64,000 nucleotides of DNA, taken from the NCBI GenBank assembly GCA_028864975.1, contig JAGWLG010000008.1:1-64000 (forward strand), in the 5' to 3' direction. How positions within the stretch are numbered: the first letter of the stretch is position 1; the number at the start of each line of letters is the position of its first letter. The notes under the pieces are model-generated. The model saw nothing but the letters and a program-made list of their open reading frames with translations, searched no databases and had not been told where the DNA came from. Positions 4,661 to 11,330 of the stretch are shown here, piece by piece. The translations under genes and the position numbers were made by a program. Source of the DNA: Thermoplasmata archaeon (GTDB taxonomy: Archaea; Thermoplasmatota; Thermoplasmata; Lutacidiplasmatales; UBA184).

Positions 4661-5099
4661 CGCTCTGCTCCGATGGCCGCATGTCGCGCATGTTGATAGG
4701 GACCGTCGCTGCCAGGAGCACGCTGATGGCACCTCTCGGCACCCCGCTCCCACCGAAGGTTTCCAGCCAGGTGAGCAACGCCGCGATGAACAGCCGCCGG
4801 TTCTCGTGGTCCAGGCAGAGGATGTCGTCGGACTTGATGTGCACGTTCCGCGAGTTCCAGAAGAACATCGCAAGACGTAGCCGGCTCGCCTCCGAGTCGG
4901 AGAGCGTTATGCCCTCGTAGCCATCCTCCTTGAAGACCTGGTTCAGCGCCATGTCGAACTTCTGGGGCTTCGACAACTCCCCAGCGATGATGGCGTCGGC
5001 CTTGGTGACGGCCTGGTCCAGGAAGTCCGTCAGTCGCTCGTCGTGCCCGAACAGGACCTCGATGGCCCTGTACTCTGCGTCGTTCCTCGGCAGCTTCAC
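4647..5099 (-). CDS. hypothetical protein, paralog of 5096-5407
   Basis: Shares YRxxExL..FLDxA and LSxxE..FWN..D(I/V)LxLDxxNR motifs with its neighbour. Confidence 0.7.
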   Translation of the reverse strand: MKLPRNDAEYRAIEVLFGHDERLTDFLDQAVTKADAIIAGELSKPQKFDMALNQVFKEDGYEGITLSDSEASRLRLAMFFWNSRNVHIKSDDILCLDHENRRLFIAALLTWLETFGGSGVPRGAISVLLAATVPINMRDMRPSEQSDGGR

Positions 5100-5408: not shown

Positions 5409-5564
5409 TCACTCTCCCCTCCGCTCGTACTTCGTGCACGGACACCCCTTCACGCGGCACTTGCCGTGCTCGACGCGCTGCGGGTAGTTCGAGTAGTCCA
5501 CTTCGTGCGACCGACGACCGTGGCCGCAGGTGCACGGGTTCTTCGGACCCTCACTCGTCATCAT
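5409..5564 (-). CDS. small Cys/His zinc-binding protein
   Basis: CTCGHxxxxH...CxxxxCPCxxY pattern. Confidence 0.6.
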   Translation of the reverse strand: MMTSEGPKNPCTCGHGRRSHEVDYSNYPQRVEHGKCRVKGCPCTKYERRGE

Positions 5565-6549
5565 CACTGCCCTCGTCGTCGTCGGAGTCGTCATCATCCG
5601 AGTCCTCGTCGTCCGTGTCCTCGGTGTCGCCCACCCCCTCCTCCAGTTCCTTGAGGAGCTTGTGCACCCCCCGGCGCTTCAGGATGCCGCTGATGAGCTT
5701 CTTTCCCTTCTCGACCCGCCCCTCCCGGTCCTCGAAGATGTCGTCGTCGAAGTGCTCGTTCACCGCGTCCCGGATGATGTCCTGGAGAGCGTTGGGCTCG
5801 ATGGCGTCCAACTCGTACACCTCGTCCCCGAACTTCTCCGCGAACCCCGACGCACGGCTGTCGCTGAGCTTCAGCGGGGCCGGGTCGAGGTTGTACTCGG
5901 ACACCTGCTCCGGGTTGAGCGCGATGCGCTCGTACTCGAAGTGGTTGTGGAAGAGCGACGGCCCGAGGTCCTCCCTCACCGCCCGCGGGATGTCCTGCCC
6001 TGATGCGTCGTGGTCGCCGAAGTAAAGCAGGACGTTCTCCCTCCCCTTGCTGTCCCGCATCACGTCCGACATCTCCTTCAGGAACGAGATGCTCGGGTAG
6101 CCTCGGCAGACCGCGAGGTCCACCTCAAGCTCCTGGCACACCTGCTCGAACGGCCCCTCCAACGCCTGCTTCTCCACGGCCACGACCACGCGCTTCGGCT
6201 GGCCGTACCACCGCGCAAGCTCGTAGTTCTCGGCGGCCTGCACGCTCCCCTTCAGGCAGGCGAGCAGCCACCCCTTGGGGTTGTCATTCCGCCACCCCTG
6301 GTCGAGGACCTTCATCCCTCGCGTGCGGTCCTCCAGCGCGCTGATGGGGATGGTCCGCTCGCGCCGCCAGGTGGTCATCGCGTTCCCGAGGTTCTTGTAC
6401 GCACGGAACGAGTTCGGGATGACCCGCCCCGCGACGAGCCGGTAGTAGAGTTGCCTGAGCGTGACCGCCGTCCCCGCGTACTGCGCGAGAACGCCCTTCA
6501 CCGCCCCGAGTAACGTCGGTCTGTCTGGGAATACTGCTGCTTCGACCAT
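5551..6549 (-). CDS. TopoVI-A/Spo11-like (JetD-like) TOPRIM protein with acidic tail
   Basis: TLRQLYY (candidate catalytic Tyr), VEKQA, RGYPS, YFGDHDASG (DxD), ERIALN, ELDAI; D/E-rich C-terminus. Confidence 0.85.
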   Translation of the reverse strand: MVEAAVFPDRPTLLGAVKGVLAQYAGTAVTLRQLYYRLVAGRVIPNSFRAYKNLGNAMTTWRRERTIPISALEDRTRGMKVLDQGWRNDNPKGWLLACLKGSVQAAENYELARWYGQPKRVVVAVEKQALEGPFEQVCQELEVDLAVCRGYPSISFLKEMSDVMRDSKGRENVLLYFGDHDASGQDIPRAVREDLGPSLFHNHFEYERIALNPEQVSEYNLDPAPLKLSDSRASGFAEKFGDEVYELDAIEPNALQDIIRDAVNEHFDDDIFEDREGRVEKGKKLISGILKRRGVHKLLKELEEGVGDTEDTDDEDSDDDDSDDDEGSDDDE

Positions 6550-6557
6550 GTTCTTCC

Positions 6558-6773
6558 TCAGAGCGACACGACGGTCTTCCCCGTCGCCCGCTCAACGACC
6601 CGGCACTTCAAGGTTCGGATGTGCCGCCGGAGGTTCGCTACCTCCTCCCTGGCCATCATCTCCGTCATCCGCTTCAGCGAGCCGCGCTTCTCCACCGTCC
6701 AGTGGATGCCGTCCATCGCGTGCTGGAACTCGTAGGGCTTCCCGGGCTCGGGTGGTGTAGTTCTCGCGCTCAT
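6558..6773 (-). CDS. hypothetical protein
   Basis: 71-aa ORF, coupled. Confidence 0.55.
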   Translation of the reverse strand: MSARTTPPEPGKPYEFQHAMDGIHWTVEKRGSLKRMTEMMAREEVANLRRHIRTLKCRVVERATGKTVVSL

Positions 6774-7432
6774 GCCGTCGCCGCCGAGCGGAAGAACCGT
6801 GGCCGCGTCTTCTCACCAGCGTCCTCCACCCCACCTTCGACATCCTCCATCCCGTACACGGCCCAGGTCTGACCCTCGGTCAGGATGCTGATGCACCGGC
6901 GGGTCAGCTTCATGCAGAAGGCGTGCGCCTCGCTCACCTCCCACTCCGGGTGCTCACACGCCTGGTACTGGTAGCCAGACAGCGCGCTCAGCACCGCGAG
7001 CGGGGTGAGCTTGGTCTTGCTGTAGCGCCAGCCCTCGTCCCCAGCTTTCGGTAGCACCCGCCCGTTCTGGGTAGGGTCCACCCGCCAGATGGCTCCGATG
7101 AACTCCTCGCGCCGCTCGAACTTGTAGGGCTCCCTCTCCAGGTCCTCCTTGTACCGGCCGTCGTAGCAGTGGTCAAAGCTCTTCTCGTTCTCCTTGAAGA
7201 GCATCTCCCCGACCCGGTCCGCCGTCTCCAACGTCAGTTCCCTCTCACGCGACCTGGCGTGGGCCTGCGCGGTGGGACCCCACGGCTGGCCCCGCTTGTA
7301 GTCCGTCGAGAGCTTCGGCTCCGTTACGTACCACCTGAGCGGGCTCACTCCGCCCGCCACTCTCTCCGCGAGGTCCAGCCCTGCCTGCACCAGGAAGTCG
7401 ATGTGCGCCTTCGAGACCACGTACGCGCTCAT
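6770..7432 (-). CDS. conserved phage-type hypothetical protein
   Basis: MSAYVVSKAHID...YQYQACEHPEW pattern, which I recall from viral hypothetical proteins; ATGA coupling. Confidence 0.7.
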   Translation of the reverse strand: MSAYVVSKAHIDFLVQAGLDLAERVAGGVSPLRWYVTEPKLSTDYKRGQPWGPTAQAHARSRERELTLETADRVGEMLFKENEKSFDHCYDGRYKEDLEREPYKFERREEFIGAIWRVDPTQNGRVLPKAGDEGWRYSKTKLTPLAVLSALSGYQYQACEHPEWEVSEAHAFCMKLTRRCISILTEGQTWAVYGMEDVEGGVEDAGEKTRPRFFRSAATA

Positions 7433-7680
7433 GCTCTGTTCCTCTTCACGACCGGCACGCACCCGAGGGCGCGCGCCACCGCCTTCGCCTCTTCCAGGGT
7501 GAACCCGAGAAACTCCCCGCTCTCCCCCGTCGGACCGACCGACAGGCGCAGGGAAATCTCCATGTCACCGGCCTGCACGCCCAGCGGGACGTCCACGACC
7601 CAGCCCCTTCCGGGCATGGTCCCAACGTCCGATAGGGTGCACCGCCGAATCTCCGCCTTCACGACCCTCAACTTCGCCAT
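7429..7680 (-). CDS. hypothetical protein
   Basis: 83-aa ORF, GGAGG upstream, first gene after an intergenic gap. Confidence 0.6.
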   Translation of the reverse strand: MAKLRVVKAEIRRCTLSDVGTMPGRGWVVDVPLGVQAGDMEISLRLSVGPTGESGEFLGFTLEEAKAVARALGCVPVVKRNRA

Positions 7681-7840
7681 CCTGCCTCCGTTGTACTGTC
7701 ACTATGGGGGTGTGGGCTGACTCTGGGAATGCCCGCCCCGTTATCTATCAACCTGTTTGCGAGGTTCATGGTGCGGTATCATGCCGCCTCGTCCGCGTCT
7801 CTTCCCGGGCGCCCGCCTGCGTCGTTCTCCCGCTTCCCCC

Positions 7841-8185
7841 TCACTTGCCCGCGGGCTCCAACCCGATGGGGGTGATGGGGGGTGTCCCGGTCAGCGTGTG
7901 GTAGGCTGCCTGCTCCGCGGGAGTCATGGACCCAAAGACCCGCATCAACCGCTGCGCGTGCCACTCAATCTTCTCGGCTAGCCGGTCTCGCCGCTTCTGG
8001 CCTCTCTGGTTGTTCCAGCGCCCGCGCAGCCGTGCGATGTGCGACCACTCGACCTTGGCCTCTTCGACTAGCCTCTGCCGGACCGGAACGTTGCGCGACG
8101 GGTCCTCGACCCTCGTTGCTCCGGTAGGTCCGGCAGCAGCCCCGCCGCCGCCATACGCCTCCAGCGGCGGTATCCCCTTGCCCAT
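7841..8185 (-). CDS. hypothetical basic protein
   Basis: Likely start MGKGI at 8185, next to the DUF559 stop. Confidence 0.55.
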   Translation of the reverse strand: MGKGIPPLEAYGGGGAAAGPTGATRVEDPSRNVPVRQRLVEEAKVEWSHIARLRGRWNNQRGQKRRDRLAEKIEWHAQRLMRVFGSMTPAEQAAYHTLTGTPPITPIGLEPAGK

Positions 8186-8186
8186 C

Positions 8187-8522
8187 TTACGACCCCTCTG
8201 CACTGGACGCCGCCTTCCTAATTTCGTTGACCACCGCTGTCGTCTCCTTCATCACCCGCTCCGCGTCGAATCGAATCACCCGCCACCCGAGTTGGTGCAG
8301 CCGGTGGGTCCTGAAGGCATCCCGACTCCGCTGCCGTGGGGTGGAGTGAAACTGGGCGCCATCCACCTCCACGGCCAGCTTCACTTCCGGGAAGGCGAAG
8401 TCAACGATTGCCTGGCAAGGGAGCCCCAGGTGCATGGCGTAGGATGCCCCTGCCGCGTCGAGAGCTTGCTTCAGGATTCGCTCAGGTTCTGAGGATGGGT
8501 TCTGTGGACTTGATTTTACCAT
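8187..8522 (-). CDS. DUF559/Vsr-like PD-(D/E)xK endonuclease
   Basis: SEPE..VDFAFPEVKLAVEVDGAQFH..RD..L..LGWRVIRF. ATG 8522 follows the GGY-NN array, whose last units form the SD. Confidence 0.85.
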   Translation of the reverse strand: MVKSSPQNPSSEPERILKQALDAAGASYAMHLGLPCQAIVDFAFPEVKLAVEVDGAQFHSTPRQRSRDAFRTHRLHQLGWRVIRFDAERVMKETTAVVNEIRKAASSAEGS

Positions 8523-8527
8523 GTTCC

Positions 8528-8607
8528 TCACCTCGCCGCACCAAACCAAACCTTGCCACGCCAGACCCTACCCCACCTGACCTGACACAACCTCACCCCA
8601 CCTTACC
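8528..8607 (-). ncRNA. GGY-NN repeat array B (16 five-nt units), candidate VIPR-type guide RNA
   Basis: Minus strand: GGT-AA GGT-GG GGT-GA GGT-TG TGT-CA GGT-CA GGT-GG GGT-AG GGT-CT GGC-GT GGC-AA GGT-TT GGT-TT GGT-GC GGC-GA GGT-GA, preceded by a GAAA-loop hairpin (8613-8633). Confidence 0.8.
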
Positions 8608-8631
8608 CCACTGAAACGGGTTTCCCCGTGT

Positions 8632-9210
8632 TCAGCGTGACTTCTTGGGCTTCTCCACCTCGAAGCTCTCGACCTCGAAGGTCCCGAACTTCGGACGGTA
8701 GTCGCCCAAGCCCTTGGAGAATCCGCCGTTCTCCAGGAACTCGCGGACCTGCGGCGCGCTCATGTTCGCCGGGTCGAGGTTCTGGATGGTGAACTCCAGC
8801 CTCCACTCGCTGAACTTGGGTCGCGCCCGGGTGATGCCCCTCCCCATCACCACCGCTCGACGCACGTCGATGTCGTACGTCTTCGCCGGCTTCCCTTCCC
8901 CGTTGAGCAGGGGAATCATGTCGGGTTCCACCCGAAGGCCAGAGCGGACGAAGCCCTTGTAGGTCTTCTTTCCGCGACCCTCGACCAGATGGTCCTTCGA
9001 TGCCGCCACCAGTAGGCCCTCGACGTGGTCCGATGGCTCGTAGATGCCAACCTTCTCGTCTCGAAAGAGCGACTGCTCCGCCTCGACCTGTGGCGTCGGC
9101 ACCACCGTCTTGCTCTTCTTCGGCTCGCCGCCCAGCTTCACCGGGTACCGGTGCTGGAGCAGTGGCCGTGTTCCTCGTATGGCGACTCTGTACGTCTCGC
9201 TCTCTCGCAT
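8632..9210 (-). CDS. Cas7/RAMP-like protein (Vipr-like)
   Basis: N-terminal YRVAIRGTRPLLQH, RARPKFSEWRLEFTI, C-terminal Gly-rich loop GLGDYRPKFGTFEV; flanked on both sides by GGY-NN arrays. Confidence 0.8.
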   Translation of the reverse strand: MRESETYRVAIRGTRPLLQHRYPVKLGGEPKKSKTVVPTPQVEAEQSLFRDEKVGIYEPSDHVEGLLVAASKDHLVEGRGKKTYKGFVRSGLRVEPDMIPLLNGEGKPAKTYDIDVRRAVVMGRGITRARPKFSEWRLEFTIQNLDPANMSAPQVREFLENGGFSKGLGDYRPKFGTFEVESFEVEKPKKSR

Positions 9211-9219
9211 GTTCTCTCC

Positions 9220-9294
9220 TTACCTCACCAAACCGTGCCGAGCCGAACCGTGCCCCGCCTTGCCGTGCCTGGCCCCGCCAGGCCTGGCCGGACC
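9220..9294 (-). ncRNA. GGY-NN repeat array A (15 five-nt units), candidate VIPR-type guide RNA
   Basis: Minus strand: GGT-CC GGC-CA GGC-CT GGC-GG GGC-CA GGC-AC GGC-AA GGC-GG GGC-AC GGT-TC GGC-TC GGC-AC GGT-TT GGT-GA GGT-AA (15/15 GGY), preceded by hairpin CTCCA-N7-TGGAG (9299-9315). Confidence 0.8.
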
Positions 9295-9317
9295 CGGTCT
9301 CCATGTTTGGTGGAGCG

Positions 9318-10013
9318 TCACAGAATCTCCTGGCCTTCCAGGATGGCCAATCCGAACCTCCGCAGGAGCGTTCGCTCCTGGGACTCGATGTCGTCGTCGA
9401 GAAGCAGCGGACGAGCCTCGACTGGAATCGAATACTGCGTGTTCCCGAATCTGTCCTTCACCTCTCGAACGTACTGCTGAATCTTCCGCGCCTCTCCGAG
9501 GGCGACCATTGGCTTCGGCGTCGCATCCGGGAAGAAGAATCCGTAGAGCGCATCGCGGTCTGTCGAGGAAAGGTACTCTGCCGCTGCCTGGTCTCCGAGC
9601 AAGTATTGTTCGGGGCCTGAGACGTACTGGGCGAAGTTTGTCCCGCGAATCGTTAGGAAGCGAATCCTCTCCAGCCAGTGCGGACCCAGCCAAATCGAGT
9701 AGTCGTACCTGGTCCGCTGGTCGGCCTCCCTCTTGGTGACGGGATTCGCTGGGAACCCCAGGTTGCGGATGAGCGTGAATCTGGGATGTGCTGCCTTGAA
9801 CGCACGCGCCGCCATCGCCACGTAGCTCGGCCTCGTACCGAAATCCTCCGGCTTCGCCGAGTCCCAGTTGCATCTGTGGCACTTGAGAAACCGGCCCCTC
9901 TTCGTTGTGGCAATCTCGGTTCGGTCTCCCAGCCCGCAACGTGGGCAGATGAACGGTAGCTGCTCCTGTTCCTTCGCTGTCGGTTCCTTCGCTGTGTCGT
10001 TGGTCTCTGGCAT
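9318..10013 (-). CDS. Zn-ribbon protein, possible degenerate nuclease fold
   Basis: CPRCG...CHRC N-terminal ribbon; start MPETND at 10013. Confidence 0.65.
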   Translation of the reverse strand: MPETNDTAKEPTAKEQEQLPFICPRCGLGDRTEIATTKRGRFLKCHRCNWDSAKPEDFGTRPSYVAMAARAFKAAHPRFTLIRNLGFPANPVTKREADQRTRYDYSIWLGPHWLERIRFLTIRGTNFAQYVSGPEQYLLGDQAAAEYLSSTDRDALYGFFFPDATPKPMVALGEARKIQQYVREVKDRFGNTQYSIPVEARPLLLDDDIESQERTLLRRFGLAILEGQEIL

Positions 10014-10026
10014 TGCTCTCTCCCTG

Positions 10027-10452
10027 TCAAACGTGGAATTGGTTGACGTGCCTGGCAGCCGACCCGGCTCCGTCCCAGCATCCATCCTTGAGGCAGTGGA
10101 AAACGAGGTCCTCGCAGATGATACAGTTCTTGCTGAACACCACTCCGTTGTCGGTGTGGGTCTTGTGCCGCTCCCCTTCCCGCCTGGTTTCGCGCTCTGC
10201 CTCCAGACGCTGTCGTTCCTCGGCCTCTCGCTGCCGGTCGAGTTGGTAGCTGCGGCGCTCCTCCGGGGTCATCTCCCAGAAGGTCTTCCCATACCGCTCA
10301 CGAAAGGCCTGTAACTGCCTCGCCTCCCCTGTCACATGGCGACGTACCGCTTCCGCTCCCTTCTCCCGAAGGCGATGGTTGCATCGCTGCTTTCCACCCT
10401 TGGTAGGGTGAGTGTGGTCGAAGCCACCGTTGCTACAGTTCTTCACTGTCAT
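10027..10452 (-). CDS. Zn-finger protein
   Basis: CIIC...C..GC......HxxxxH; start MTVKNC at 10452. Confidence 0.6.
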   Translation of the reverse strand: MTVKNCSNGGFDHTHPTKGGKQRCNHRLREKGAEAVRRHVTGEARQLQAFRERYGKTFWEMTPEERRSYQLDRQREAEERQRLEAERETRREGERHKTHTDNGVVFSKNCIICEDLVFHCLKDGCWDGAGSAARHVNQFHV

Positions 10453-10793
10453 ATTGGTAGCCTCGTTGGCACGATGCCCGTGTCCGGTGACCGCTGGGCG
10501 ATTCTCTTCCACGGGCGCTCCTGGTCCCATCTGAACCCACACGCCCTACAGCGGTGGGGTCGTCGGTGGAACCTCCTCTTGATTCTGATTCCGCAGGCGT
10601 GGACACGTTGGCCTGTTCGTGTTCCCCCTGGACAAGGTGGGTCGTCCGGGTCGATGCGACGGAGCATCCCGCACGCCGGCATGCTACACCCCGCCCGTCT
10701 CGTGAACAGGTCGAAATCCTTTTGCGGGAAGGGGGAATCTAACTCCCGCGGAGACGTAATCCTCCGGCCCGACCCTGGAAGCGGGACCACCAC
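10449..10793 (-). CDS. Cys-rich basic protein (start uncertain)
   Basis: CSMPAC...CRACG. Confidence 0.5.
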   Translation of the reverse strand: MVVPLPGSGRRITSPRELDSPFPQKDFDLFTRRAGCSMPACGMLRRIDPDDPPCPGGTRTGQRVHACGIRIKRRFHRRPHRCRACGFRWDQERPWKRIAQRSPDTGIVPTRLPI

Positions 10794-10844
10794 GACCAGG
10801 GGTCGGGCTCCCTTTCCGCTCGGGCATTCCCGCGTTCGTCATCT

Positions 10845-11330
10845 TCACGCTCCCGGCCTCGCCTTCTCCTTCCGGTACGCCGCCCAGACAGCTTCCCCTG
10901 TTCTCTCCAGGGCGCTGACTAGCGTCTCGCCCGGCTTCACATGGCTGGTCGCGTGCTCCTCGATTCTTCCGAACTCCGACCGGCGAATCGTGGTCACCAC
11001 ATCGTCCGACTCCGATAGGTGAATGACCATCTGGACCGCGCGCCCGTCCTCGGGCTGGCAGTTCGCCGCGGCCGGTCGCACGTCTCTCGACGTCACCTCC
11101 GCGAGCCCCGTGGCCGGCGCGGCCTGGGGTGGAGGAGGTGCTACGAGCCGGGTCTGCACAGGCGCCGCCGCGAGCTTCGCCCCCGCTTCGAGCGCTTCGC
11201 CGTGGAGCTTGCAGAGCCAGACCTGGCGCGACGGGTCCCAGGCGAGCCTGGACCGCGGCGGAATCGCGCACCCGTTCGCGCAGTGGAGCCGCTTGCCGGT
11301 CCCCTTGTCGAACCACTGGAGCGCTGTCAA
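10845..11330 (-). CDS. hypothetical protein with N-terminal Zn finger
   Basis: CANGC...CKLH. Confidence 0.6.
   Translation of the reverse strand: MTALQWFDKGTGKRLHCANGCAIPPRSRLAWDPSRQVWLCKLHGEALEAGAKLAAAPVQTRLVAPPPPQAAPATGLAEVTSRDVRPAAANCQPEDGRAVQMVIHLSESDDVVTTIRRSEFGRIEEHATSHVKPGETLVSALERTGEAVWAAYRKEKARPGA

What the first reader, a model, noticed from the sequence alone, without database searches (positions are those of the whole stretch)
9220..9294. Array A spells a 30-nt code that can be searched as a gapped target
Seen in sequence: the NN string is CC CA CT GG CA AC AA GG AC TC TC AC TT GA AA; 15/15 units are GGY (10 GGC, 5 GGT). The dinucleotides are diverse, unlike microsatellite decay. 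Inference: if every third target base is skipped, the target is CC.CA.CT.GG.CA.AC.AA.GG.AC.TC.TC.AC.TT.GA.AA or its reverse complement. Such a code would tolerate wobble-position changes. I noticed no self-match by eye but could not search exhaustively.
Basis: partly seen in the sequence, partly recalled or inferred. Interest (0 to 1): 0.8.

Follow-up and report, generated by a model that had tools for sequence, protein, structure and literature searches.

The report
VIPR guide-RNA array, archaeal mobile element
The 15 five-base repeats are a guide-RNA gene of a VIPR system, a CRISPR-like RNA-guided DNA-binding system first described in 2026 preprints. It sits on a virus-like element binned with an archaeal genome, so it is a new example of a known kind, and I could not find what it targets.

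Summary
On the minus strand, 9294-9220 is 15/15 GGY-NN pentamers with exactly the NN string reported. A second array of 16 units lies at 8607-8528. These are the only two such arrays in the 3.6-Mb assembly.

The arrays flank a 192-aa gene. A profile built from this protein and 53 homologues matches the solved SUSP1 Vipr protein (PDB 36pp, E 7e-27). The gene keeps the GGY-contacting residues, and its model folds like Cas7/Csm3. Most relatives fetched from IMG/VR (12 of 16 loci) carry GGY-NN arrays with different NN strings beside the gene.

This is therefore a VIPR locus (bioRxiv 10.64898/2026.04.26.720920 and .720927).

No target was found. Matches were no better than shuffled guides in the own assembly at skips 0-3. 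There was nothing within 3 mismatches in 401 genomes of the class. Seed scans of IMG/VR, metagenomes and GTDB genomes gave only chance-level extensions.

Local twists:
- both arrays run into the ribosome-binding site of the next gene;
- no shared 3' tail is visible;
- the partner gene is a DUF559 nuclease.

This scan has already noted VIPR loci in more than 300 other genomes.

The parts
9220..9294 (-). Array A: 15 perfect GGY-NN units, the predicted variable (guide) region of a vrRNA. NN = CC CA CT GG CA AC AA GG AC TC TC AC TT GA AA.
9215..9219 (-). In-register closing unit GGAGA (purine at the Y position). It doubles as the Shine-Dalgarno-like box 5 nt before the vipr ATG (9210-9208).
   Evidence: the same kind of GGR closing unit occurs in 11 of 20 arrays of relatives
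9299..9315 (-). Small leader hairpin CUCCA-(CCAAACA)-UGGAG. It lies between the stop codon of the upstream 255-aa gene (9320-9318) and array A.
   Evidence: sequence reading; not conserved in relatives
8632..9210 (-). vipr gene: a 192-aa stand-alone RAMP protein, homologue of SUSP1 Vipr.
8609..8637 (-). 12-bp hairpin with a GAAA loop that starts in the vipr stop codon. It is either the leader of array B or the 3' end structure of the vipr message.
8528..8607 (-). Array B: 16 units (15 GGY plus one TGT). NN = AA GG GA TG CA CA GG AG CT GT AA TT TT GC GA GA.
8523..8527 (-). Closing unit GGAAC, directly before the ATG (8522-8520) of the nuclease gene.
8187..8522 (-). 111-aa DUF559/Vsr-like endonuclease, the candidate vipr-accessory (vap) gene.
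   Evidence: PF04480, E 2.4e-14; a DUF559 gene also sits directly behind an array in the related loci L001/L002

Best explanation
Array A is the variable region of a VIPR guide RNA (vrRNA). The operon 9320-8187 (minus strand) reads: array A, vipr, array B, DUF559 nuclease. By analogy with the SUSP1 system, one Vipr protomer binds each GGY. The protomers form a helical filament that flips the GGY bases out and presents the 15 NN dinucleotides. These pair with double-stranded DNA of the form NNxNNx... (1-nt skip), which silences that DNA or, with the nuclease partner, perhaps cuts it. The likely target is a competing mobile element or virus.

Shown here:
- the array itself;
- homology of the adjacent protein to Vipr, with the GGY-binding residues kept;
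- a Cas7-like predicted fold;
- co-occurrence of arrays and gene across relatives, with differing NN strings.

Inferred:
- expression and processing of the RNA out of a polycistronic transcript;
- filament formation;
- the skip rule in this clade;
- the role of the nuclease.

The target is unknown. Because each array ends in register at the ribosome-binding site of the next gene, Vipr loading probably also throttles translation of vipr and of the nuclease. That last point is inference only.
For: - Array: 15/15 GGY at period 5, against 0.01 six-unit matches expected by chance.
- Protein: phrog_4652. BLASTP to SUSP2 gp040 gives 26% identity, E 2e-15. A profile of 54 homologues hits PDB 36pp_D, 'SUSP1 Vipr protein', at E 7.2e-27.
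- Residues: those that contact G1, G2 and Y3 in SUSP1 (H17, R138, D177, W178, R179) align to H20, R130, D170, Y171, R172. All but the aromatic residue are invariant or more than 90% conserved in the family.
- Fold: the AF2 model has pLDDT 93.6. Its best Foldseek matches are Csm3/Cas7 subunits, probability 1.0, TM about 0.55.
- Relatives: 12 of 16 IMG/VR loci with a homologue (10 of about 13 distinct contigs) carry GGY-NN arrays on the same strand near the gene, most within 150 nt. Positions 1-2 have 0.2 bits of entropy, positions 4-5 have 1.8-1.9 bits, and all 16 dinucleotides are used.
- Published rule and mechanism.
Against: - No target was found at any skip rule or in any collection.
- No shared 3' tail or pseudoknot like that of the SUSP1 clade, and no ribozyme or other Rfam family in 8000-9600.
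- There is no room for a separate promoter in the 24 nt between the upstream stop codon and the array, so the RNA would have to be cut out of an mRNA.
- The region that forms the skip-base pocket in SUSP1 (the alpha-bundle with K33) is 12 residues shorter here and is modelled with lower confidence (pLDDT 70-74). The 1-nt skip rule is therefore not assured for this clade.
- Nothing was tested experimentally.
Confidence: 0.85

Rival explanations
1. The arrays are mainly cis-acting translational operators. Vipr (or another multimeric RNA-binding protein) coats the GGY repeats of its own mRNA leader, as TRAP coats GAG/UAG triplets, and hides the ribosome-binding sites of vipr and the nuclease. The NN bases would carry no guide information.
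For: - Both arrays end in register in a GGA unit that is the Shine-Dalgarno-like box, 5-10 nt before the ATG.
- Several relatives also place an array 5-30 nt before a start codon.
- No target was found.
Against: - The family's founding member is shown to use NN as a programmable guide.
- NN strings are near-maximally diverse among relatives and between arrays A and B. A pure operator would not need that.
- In other relatives arrays lie far from any start codon or in multi-array tandems (L010, L003).
- Autoregulation is compatible with guide function as a second role, so it is not exclusive.
Confidence: 0.1
2. The locus is a decaying or idle VIPR remnant. The arrays are inherited guides whose targets no longer exist, and the system does nothing at present.
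For: There is no match of 80% or more of NN positions that exceeds chance in the own assembly, in 401 genomes of the class, or among seed hits in IMG/VR, metagenomes and GTDB genomes.
Against: - Array A has 15 of 15 intact GGY units and array B has 15 of 16.
- The vipr reading frame is intact, with all conserved RNA-contact residues.
- The databases sample viruses of uncultured Thermoplasmata poorly, so absence of a hit is weak evidence.
Confidence: 0.04
3. The GG-N3 periodicity forms two-tetrad RNA or DNA G-quadruplexes, or binds an unrelated protein, and its position next to vipr is a coincidence.
For: GG runs spaced by 3 nt formally fit a G2N3 quadruplex motif (sequence reading).
Against: - The third base is restricted to pyrimidine in 15/15 units, which a quadruplex does not require.
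- Arrays co-occur with vipr homologues in 12 of 16 independent loci.
- These are the only two such arrays in 3.6 Mb, and both flank vipr.
Confidence: 0.01

Closest known systems
VIPR system of Escherichia phage SUSP1 (type II; Vipr + vrRNA + vap1). Sources: bioRxiv 10.64898/2026.04.26.720920, 10.64898/2026.04.26.720927, 10.64898/2026.10.15.759431; PDB 36pp.
   Same: - A stand-alone RAMP protein of about 190 aa with the same G-loop (GxGD-aromatic-RP) and thumb arginine.
- Flanking intergenic arrays of 9-16 GGY/NN units on the coding strand.
- One array upstream and one or more downstream of vipr.
- A minimal two-gene locus on a viral or mobile element.
   Different: - Only 26% protein identity, with a 12-residue shorter alpha-bundle region.
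- No recognisable conserved 3' tail or pseudoknot.
- The arrays abut the start codons of the next genes instead of being free-standing small-RNA genes.
- The partner gene is a DUF559 nuclease rather than a DNA-binding vap1.
- The host is an archaeon with 67% GC.
- The target is unknown.
Nuclease- or helicase-associated VIPR types III-V (same preprint, main text and the legends of figs S21-S22)
   Same: A Vipr gene is paired with a predicted DNA nuclease, and some of these systems have a single vrRNA or few vrRNAs.
   Different: The paper describes those types as enriched in cellular defence islands and shows an HNH example. Here the locus sits on a 120-kb element whose tetranucleotide signature differs from the chromosome (r = 0.90, against 0.99 or more for chromosomal contigs), and the nuclease is DUF559/Vsr-like. 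The type could not be assigned because the paper's trees and tables are not held as text.
Cas7/Csm3 backbone of class 1 CRISPR effector complexes
   Same: Same predicted fold (Foldseek probability 1.0 to 6xn3_F, 9g9b_E, 6s6b_I). One protomer per RNA repeat length, with the thumb flipping bases at a fixed period.
   Different: The period is 5 with three bases displaced, not 6 with one. There is no CRISPR repeat-spacer array. None of the 8 flanking ORFs tested (5551-11316) matched a Cas family in Pfam or PHROGs. The guide information is interleaved with the protein-binding motif.
TRAP (trp RNA-binding attenuation protein) binding sites of Bacillus
   Same: Many short triplets at roughly 5-nt spacing in an mRNA leader that overlaps a ribosome-binding site. 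This was my first working analogy, before the literature search.
   Different: The triplet is GGY rather than GAG/UAG, with 15-16 units rather than 9-11. The adjacent protein is a RAMP, not a TRAP beta-sandwich ring. The resemblance is functional only, for the possible autoregulatory side effect.

Membership tests
VIPR | Vipr protein: sequence homology to the experimentally characterised Vipr (SUSP1) | tested here: met
   A profile of 54 homologues hits PDB 36pp_D 'SUSP1 Vipr protein' at E 7.2e-27 over 172 of 178 profile positions. BLASTP to the SUSP2 orthologue gives E 2e-15.
VIPR | RAMP fold with a single RRM core, glycine-rich loop and thumb | tested here: met
   AF2 model with pLDDT 93.6. 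The top Foldseek PDB hits are all Csm3/Cmr4/Cas7 chains at probability 1.0. The G-loop G167-L-G-D-Y-R-P173 is conserved.
VIPR | Residues that read GGY in SUSP1 (H17, R138, D177, W178, R179) | tested here: met
   They align to H20, R130, D170, Y171 (aromatic kept), R172. H20, D170 and R172 are at least 90% conserved and R130 is invariant in the 54-sequence family.
VIPR | Alpha-bundle pocket and K33, which accommodate exactly one skipped target base | tested here: inconclusive
   There is a 12-residue gap relative to SUSP2 in this region. K33 aligns to V24, with K25 adjacent. Model pLDDT is 70-74 for residues 21-40.
VIPR | Arrays of about 9-16 GGY/NN (YNNGG) units in the intergenic regions flanking vipr, on the same strand | tested here: met
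   15 and 16 units, directly 5' and 3' of the gene, and the only two in 3.6 Mb.
VIPR | GGY conserved but NN hypervariable across related loci | tested here: met
   20 arrays from 11 loci: entropy is 0.18, 0.25 and 1.00 bits at positions 1-3 and 1.93 and 1.84 bits at positions 4-5. Caveat: the arrays were found by their GGY, so only the NN diversity is independent evidence.
VIPR | Invariable structured 3' tail capping the repeat tract (pseudoknot in the SUSP1 clade) | tested here: not met
   The 3' flanks of arrays A and B share only the closing GGA unit and AACATG, then run into different coding sequences. There is no Rfam match. The paper says architectures vary between types, so this argues against the SUSP1-type subclass, not against VIPR.
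VIPR | Accessory vap gene in the same operon with a predicted DNA-related function | tested here: met
   A DUF559 endonuclease domain (PF04480, E 2.4e-14) starts 5 nt after array B. A DUF559 gene also follows an array in L001/L002. It is absent from the other related loci examined.
VIPR | Natural target matching at least 80% of NN positions under the 1-nt skip rule, above chance | tested here: not met
   - Own assembly: best 21/30 for A and 21/32 for B, equal to shuffled guides.
- 0 of 401 class genomes for A and 0 of 61 family genomes for B within 3 mismatches.
- Seed hits extend at chance level, best 24/30 and 24/32.
- The searches needed 8-10 perfect consecutive units, so diverged targets could be missed.
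VIPR | vrRNA expressed, co-purifies with Vipr, and the RNP binds gapped dsDNA | not testable with these tools
   This needs small-RNA sequencing, pull-down and binding assays.
CRISPR-Cas (class 1) | Repeat-spacer array plus multi-subunit cas operon (Cas5, Cas6, large subunit, adaptation genes) | tested here: not met
   The 8 ORFs tested between 5551 and 11316 gave no Cas family in Pfam or PHROGs. The tandem-repeat scan of the window shows no CRISPR-like array.
TRAP-regulated leaders | 9-11 GAG/UAG triplets separated by 2-3 nt, bound by the MtrB ring | tested here: not met
   The triplet is GGY in 30 of 31 units. The adjacent protein is a RAMP. An mtrB gene was not searched for.

The most novel reading that the evidence does not exclude
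This would be a nuclease-coupled VIPR carried by an archaeal virus-like element, in which the guide tracts are built into the mRNA leaders. Each tract would end in a GGR 'stop' unit that is also the ribosome-binding site. Loading of Vipr on the guide would then both make the RNP and shut off translation of vipr and of the DUF559 nuclease, giving a self-limiting circuit that cuts rather than silences. It would use no 3' tail or ribozyme, unlike the architectures described so far.
Probability: 0.2. Interest if true: 0.5.

Novelty: new member of a known kind. Interest (0 to 1): 0.3.

Why it matters
The finding adds an archaeal, high-GC, DUF559-linked example to a family that is only months old in the literature, and its compact leader-embedded layout may say something about how vrRNAs are made and capped when no pseudoknot tail or ribozyme is present. 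It does not open a new question: the gapped code is already published and tested, and this scan has already noted VIPR loci in more than 300 genomes. Its practical value is as a test case for whether the 1-nt skip rule holds in a Vipr with a shortened alpha-bundle, and whether DUF559 turns VIPR binding into cleavage.

Tried and rejected
1. My first reading was a TRAP-like leader or a G2N3 quadruplex. I dropped it once the flanking protein proved to be a Vipr homologue.

2. Self or host targeting. I scanned the 3.6-Mb assembly exhaustively on both strands at skips 0, 1, 2 and 3, with the arrays masked. The best scores were 19, 21, 21 and 21 of 30 for array A. Sixty unit-shuffled guides gave mean maxima of 20.7-21.0 and reached up to 24.

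3. Class-level genomes. The full 1-skip pattern with at most 3 mismatches hit 0 of 401 genomes for A and 0 of 61 family genomes for B.

4. IMG/VR seeds for array A.
- Units 4-12 gave 0 hits.
- Units 1-8 gave 9 hits and units 8-15 gave 16 hits.
- A shuffled 8-unit control gave 21 hits.
- Extensions were at chance. The best, L033, scored 24/30, and about 0.26 such cases are expected among 25 seeds.
- L028 and L039 match the 3' ten units exactly but 0 of 10 positions in the 5' units. They lie in 32% GC contigs, in a gene motif NGTSSTFDK. I judged this a coincidence, with a rough p of 0.05 before multiple testing.

5. Metagenomes. The 3' ten units gave 0 hits. The 5' ten units gave 4 contigs of one lineage, scoring 22/30 and not in wobble phase.

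6. GTDB genomes. The 3' ten units and the central ten units both gave 0 hits.

7. Array B seeds in IMG/VR gave 85 hits, the best 24/32, which is chance level.

8. Rfam found nothing in 8000-9600, so there is no hammerhead as in some VIPR types.

10. The paper's supplementary tables are not held, so the VIPR type was not assigned.

11. External scans used only the 1-nt skip rule.

Full report
**What is there.** On the minus strand, 9294-9220 reads as 15 consecutive pentamers. The tract continues in register into GGAGA (9219-9215), then GAAC and the ATG at 9210 of a 192-aa ORF (8632-9210). Directly after that ORF's stop codon comes a 12-bp GAAA-capped hairpin (8637-8609). A second array of 16 units follows (8607-8528, one unit TGT), then a closing GGAAC and the ATG at 8522 of a 111-aa ORF (8187-8522).

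A 6-unit GGYNN probe with at most 1 mismatch gives 24 overlapping hits in the window, against 0.01 expected from shuffles, and all lie in these two arrays. No other such array exists in the 3.6-Mb assembly.

**What the neighbours are.**
- The 111-aa ORF is a DUF559/Vsr-like endonuclease (PF04480, E 2.4e-14).
- The 192-aa ORF has no Pfam family but matches phrog_4652 (E 5e-19).
- By tblastn it finds about 130 phage records, among them Felix-O1-like phages such as SUSP2.

**Literature.** A literature search then found three 2026 preprints. They describe Viral Interference Programmable Repeat systems:
- a stand-alone RAMP protein, Vipr;
- vrRNAs made of 9-16 GGY/NN repeats;
- a 1-nt-skip target rule, shown by pangenome searches, competition binding and GFP repression;
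- seven types with varied array layouts and accessory (vap) genes, including nucleases in types III-V.

The cryo-EM paper shows one protomer per repeat. The GGY bases are flipped out and read by H17, R138, D177, W178 and R179. The skipped target base sits in a thumb/alpha-bundle pocket, and the R-loop grows 3' to 5' along the guide.

**Membership tests.** The database search found 55 homologues at 27-54% identity, all unnamed metagenomic proteins. I aligned 54 of them.
- Their profile hits PDB 36pp chain D, 'SUSP1 Vipr protein', at E 7.2e-27.
- Pairwise BLASTP to the SUSP2 orthologue gives 26% identity, E 2e-15. It aligns H20, R130, D170, Y171 and R172 with the five GGY-reading residues.
- Four of these are invariant or at least 90% conserved in the family, and the fifth stays aromatic.
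- The AlphaFold model is confident (pLDDT 93.6).
- Its best structural matches are Csm3/Cmr4/Cas7 backbone subunits at probability 1.0.

Of 16 IMG/VR loci that encode a homologue, 12 carry GGY-NN arrays on the same strand near the gene, most within about 150 nt. L001/L002 and L004/L007 are duplicate pairs, so this is 10 of about 13 distinct contigs. The NN strings are unrelated to ours. Across 20 arrays, positions 1-2 are nearly invariant, position 3 is C or T, and positions 4-5 have 1.8-1.9 bits of entropy. I conclude with high confidence that this is a VIPR locus and that array A is the variable region of a vrRNA.

**The specific claim, a searchable gapped target.**
- *Own assembly.* With the arrays masked, both strands and skips 0-3, the best scores for A were 19, 21, 21 and 21 of 30. 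For B they were 21, 21, 22 and 22 of 32. Unit-shuffled guides gave the same or better (mean maxima 20.7-21.9, up to 24). This covers the host chromosome contigs, the 120-kb element itself and every other contig in the bin.
- *Genomes of the class.* The full 1-skip pattern with at most 3 mismatches hit none of 401 genomes for A and none of 61 family genomes for B.
- *Large collections.* These accept only exact IUPAC patterns, so I used seeds of 8-10 perfect units and treated the remaining units as an internal control.
- *IMG/VR.* It gave 0, 9 and 16 seed hits for A, against 21 for a shuffled seed. The unseeded units matched at chance. The best was 24/30, and about 0.26 such cases are expected.
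- *Most suggestive case.* Two related 32% GC contigs match the 3' ten units exactly but none of the ten 5' positions. I regard this as coincidence.
- *Metagenomes.* They gave 0 hits for one seed and a single lineage at 22/30, out of codon phase, for the other.
- *GTDB genomes.* They gave 0 and 0.
- *Array B.* Its seeds behaved the same way.

So there is no hit better than controls. This does not refute guide function: in the paper, 30-40% of type III and V guides also lacked hits, and viruses of uncultured archaea are poorly sampled. The target remains unknown.

**Context.** The contig is 119,883 bp with 65.4% GC against 67.4% for the assembly. Its tetranucleotide profile correlates with the rest of the bin at 0.90, whereas large chromosomal contigs correlate at 0.99 or more. 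It also carries phage-like topoisomerase, methyltransferase and ATPase genes. It is therefore a mobile, probably viral, element binned with the genome. The assembly holds a full-length SSU rRNA that scores 1488 bits on the archaeal model. That is consistent with earlier notes calling the host a Thermoplasmata archaeon, a name I could not check.

**How this locus differs from the SUSP1 archetype.**
1. There is no shared 3' tail. The two arrays share only a closing GGA unit and AACATG before running into different coding sequences, and Rfam finds no ribozyme.
2. Only 24 nt separate the upstream stop codon from array A. The guides must therefore be transcribed as part of the operon and trimmed out.
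3. The closing unit of each array is the Shine-Dalgarno-like box of the next gene, so Vipr loading would be expected to occlude translation of vipr and of the nuclease. This is an inference, not tested.
4. The partner is a DUF559 nuclease. In L001/L002 (Vipr 40% identical) a DUF559 gene also sits directly behind an array, although the gene order is permuted. This suggests a real array-nuclease module.
5. The alpha-bundle region that forms the skip-base pocket is 12 residues shorter than in SUSP2 and less confidently modelled. The 1-nt rule is likely but not certain here, and my external scans assumed it.

**Verdict.** The locus is a new member of a known kind, with modest local peculiarities and no identified target.

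Noticed in passing
window 9215-9219 and 8523-8527; L002, L004, L005, L008, L012, L014; L017 about 2245 and about 2380: In 11 of 20 arrays of this Vipr clade, and in both SUSP2 arrays read, the GGY tract ends with one in-register unit that has a purine at the third base (GGA.. or GGG..). This could be a stop or cap signal, because the published Y pocket excludes purines. I could not tell whether the papers describe it.
   Followed up: partly
L003:1080-1172 and L005 about 4690-4746 (IMG/VR relatives): A CUGAUGA-containing hairpin module lies between GGY-NN arrays. It looks like the hammerhead-interspersed array layout the VIPR paper mentions. I did not run it against Rfam.
   Followed up: no
L010:2193-2446: Three tandem arrays are separated by an identical hairpin of about 42 nt (cgacagtaatatccgaaagggtattgctgtcc...). 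This repeat-like handle gives the locus a CRISPR-like look.
   Followed up: no
window 9318-10085 (minus strand): The 255-aa ORF just upstream of array A has a CxxC...CxxC zinc-ribbon near its N-terminus. It has no Pfam or PHROG family and no counterpart in the 17 related loci.
   Followed up: partly
window 8603-9304 (minus strand): A 233-aa ATG-started ORF reads through array A and overlaps vipr in another frame. It is most likely a spurious high-GC ORF, but a gene caller could annotate it and hide the array.
   Followed up: no
window 5551-6549 (minus strand): A 332-aa ORF matches a phage 'DNA topoisomerase' PHROG (phrog_6247, E 8e-63). This supports the viral or mobile nature of the contig.
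   Followed up: no
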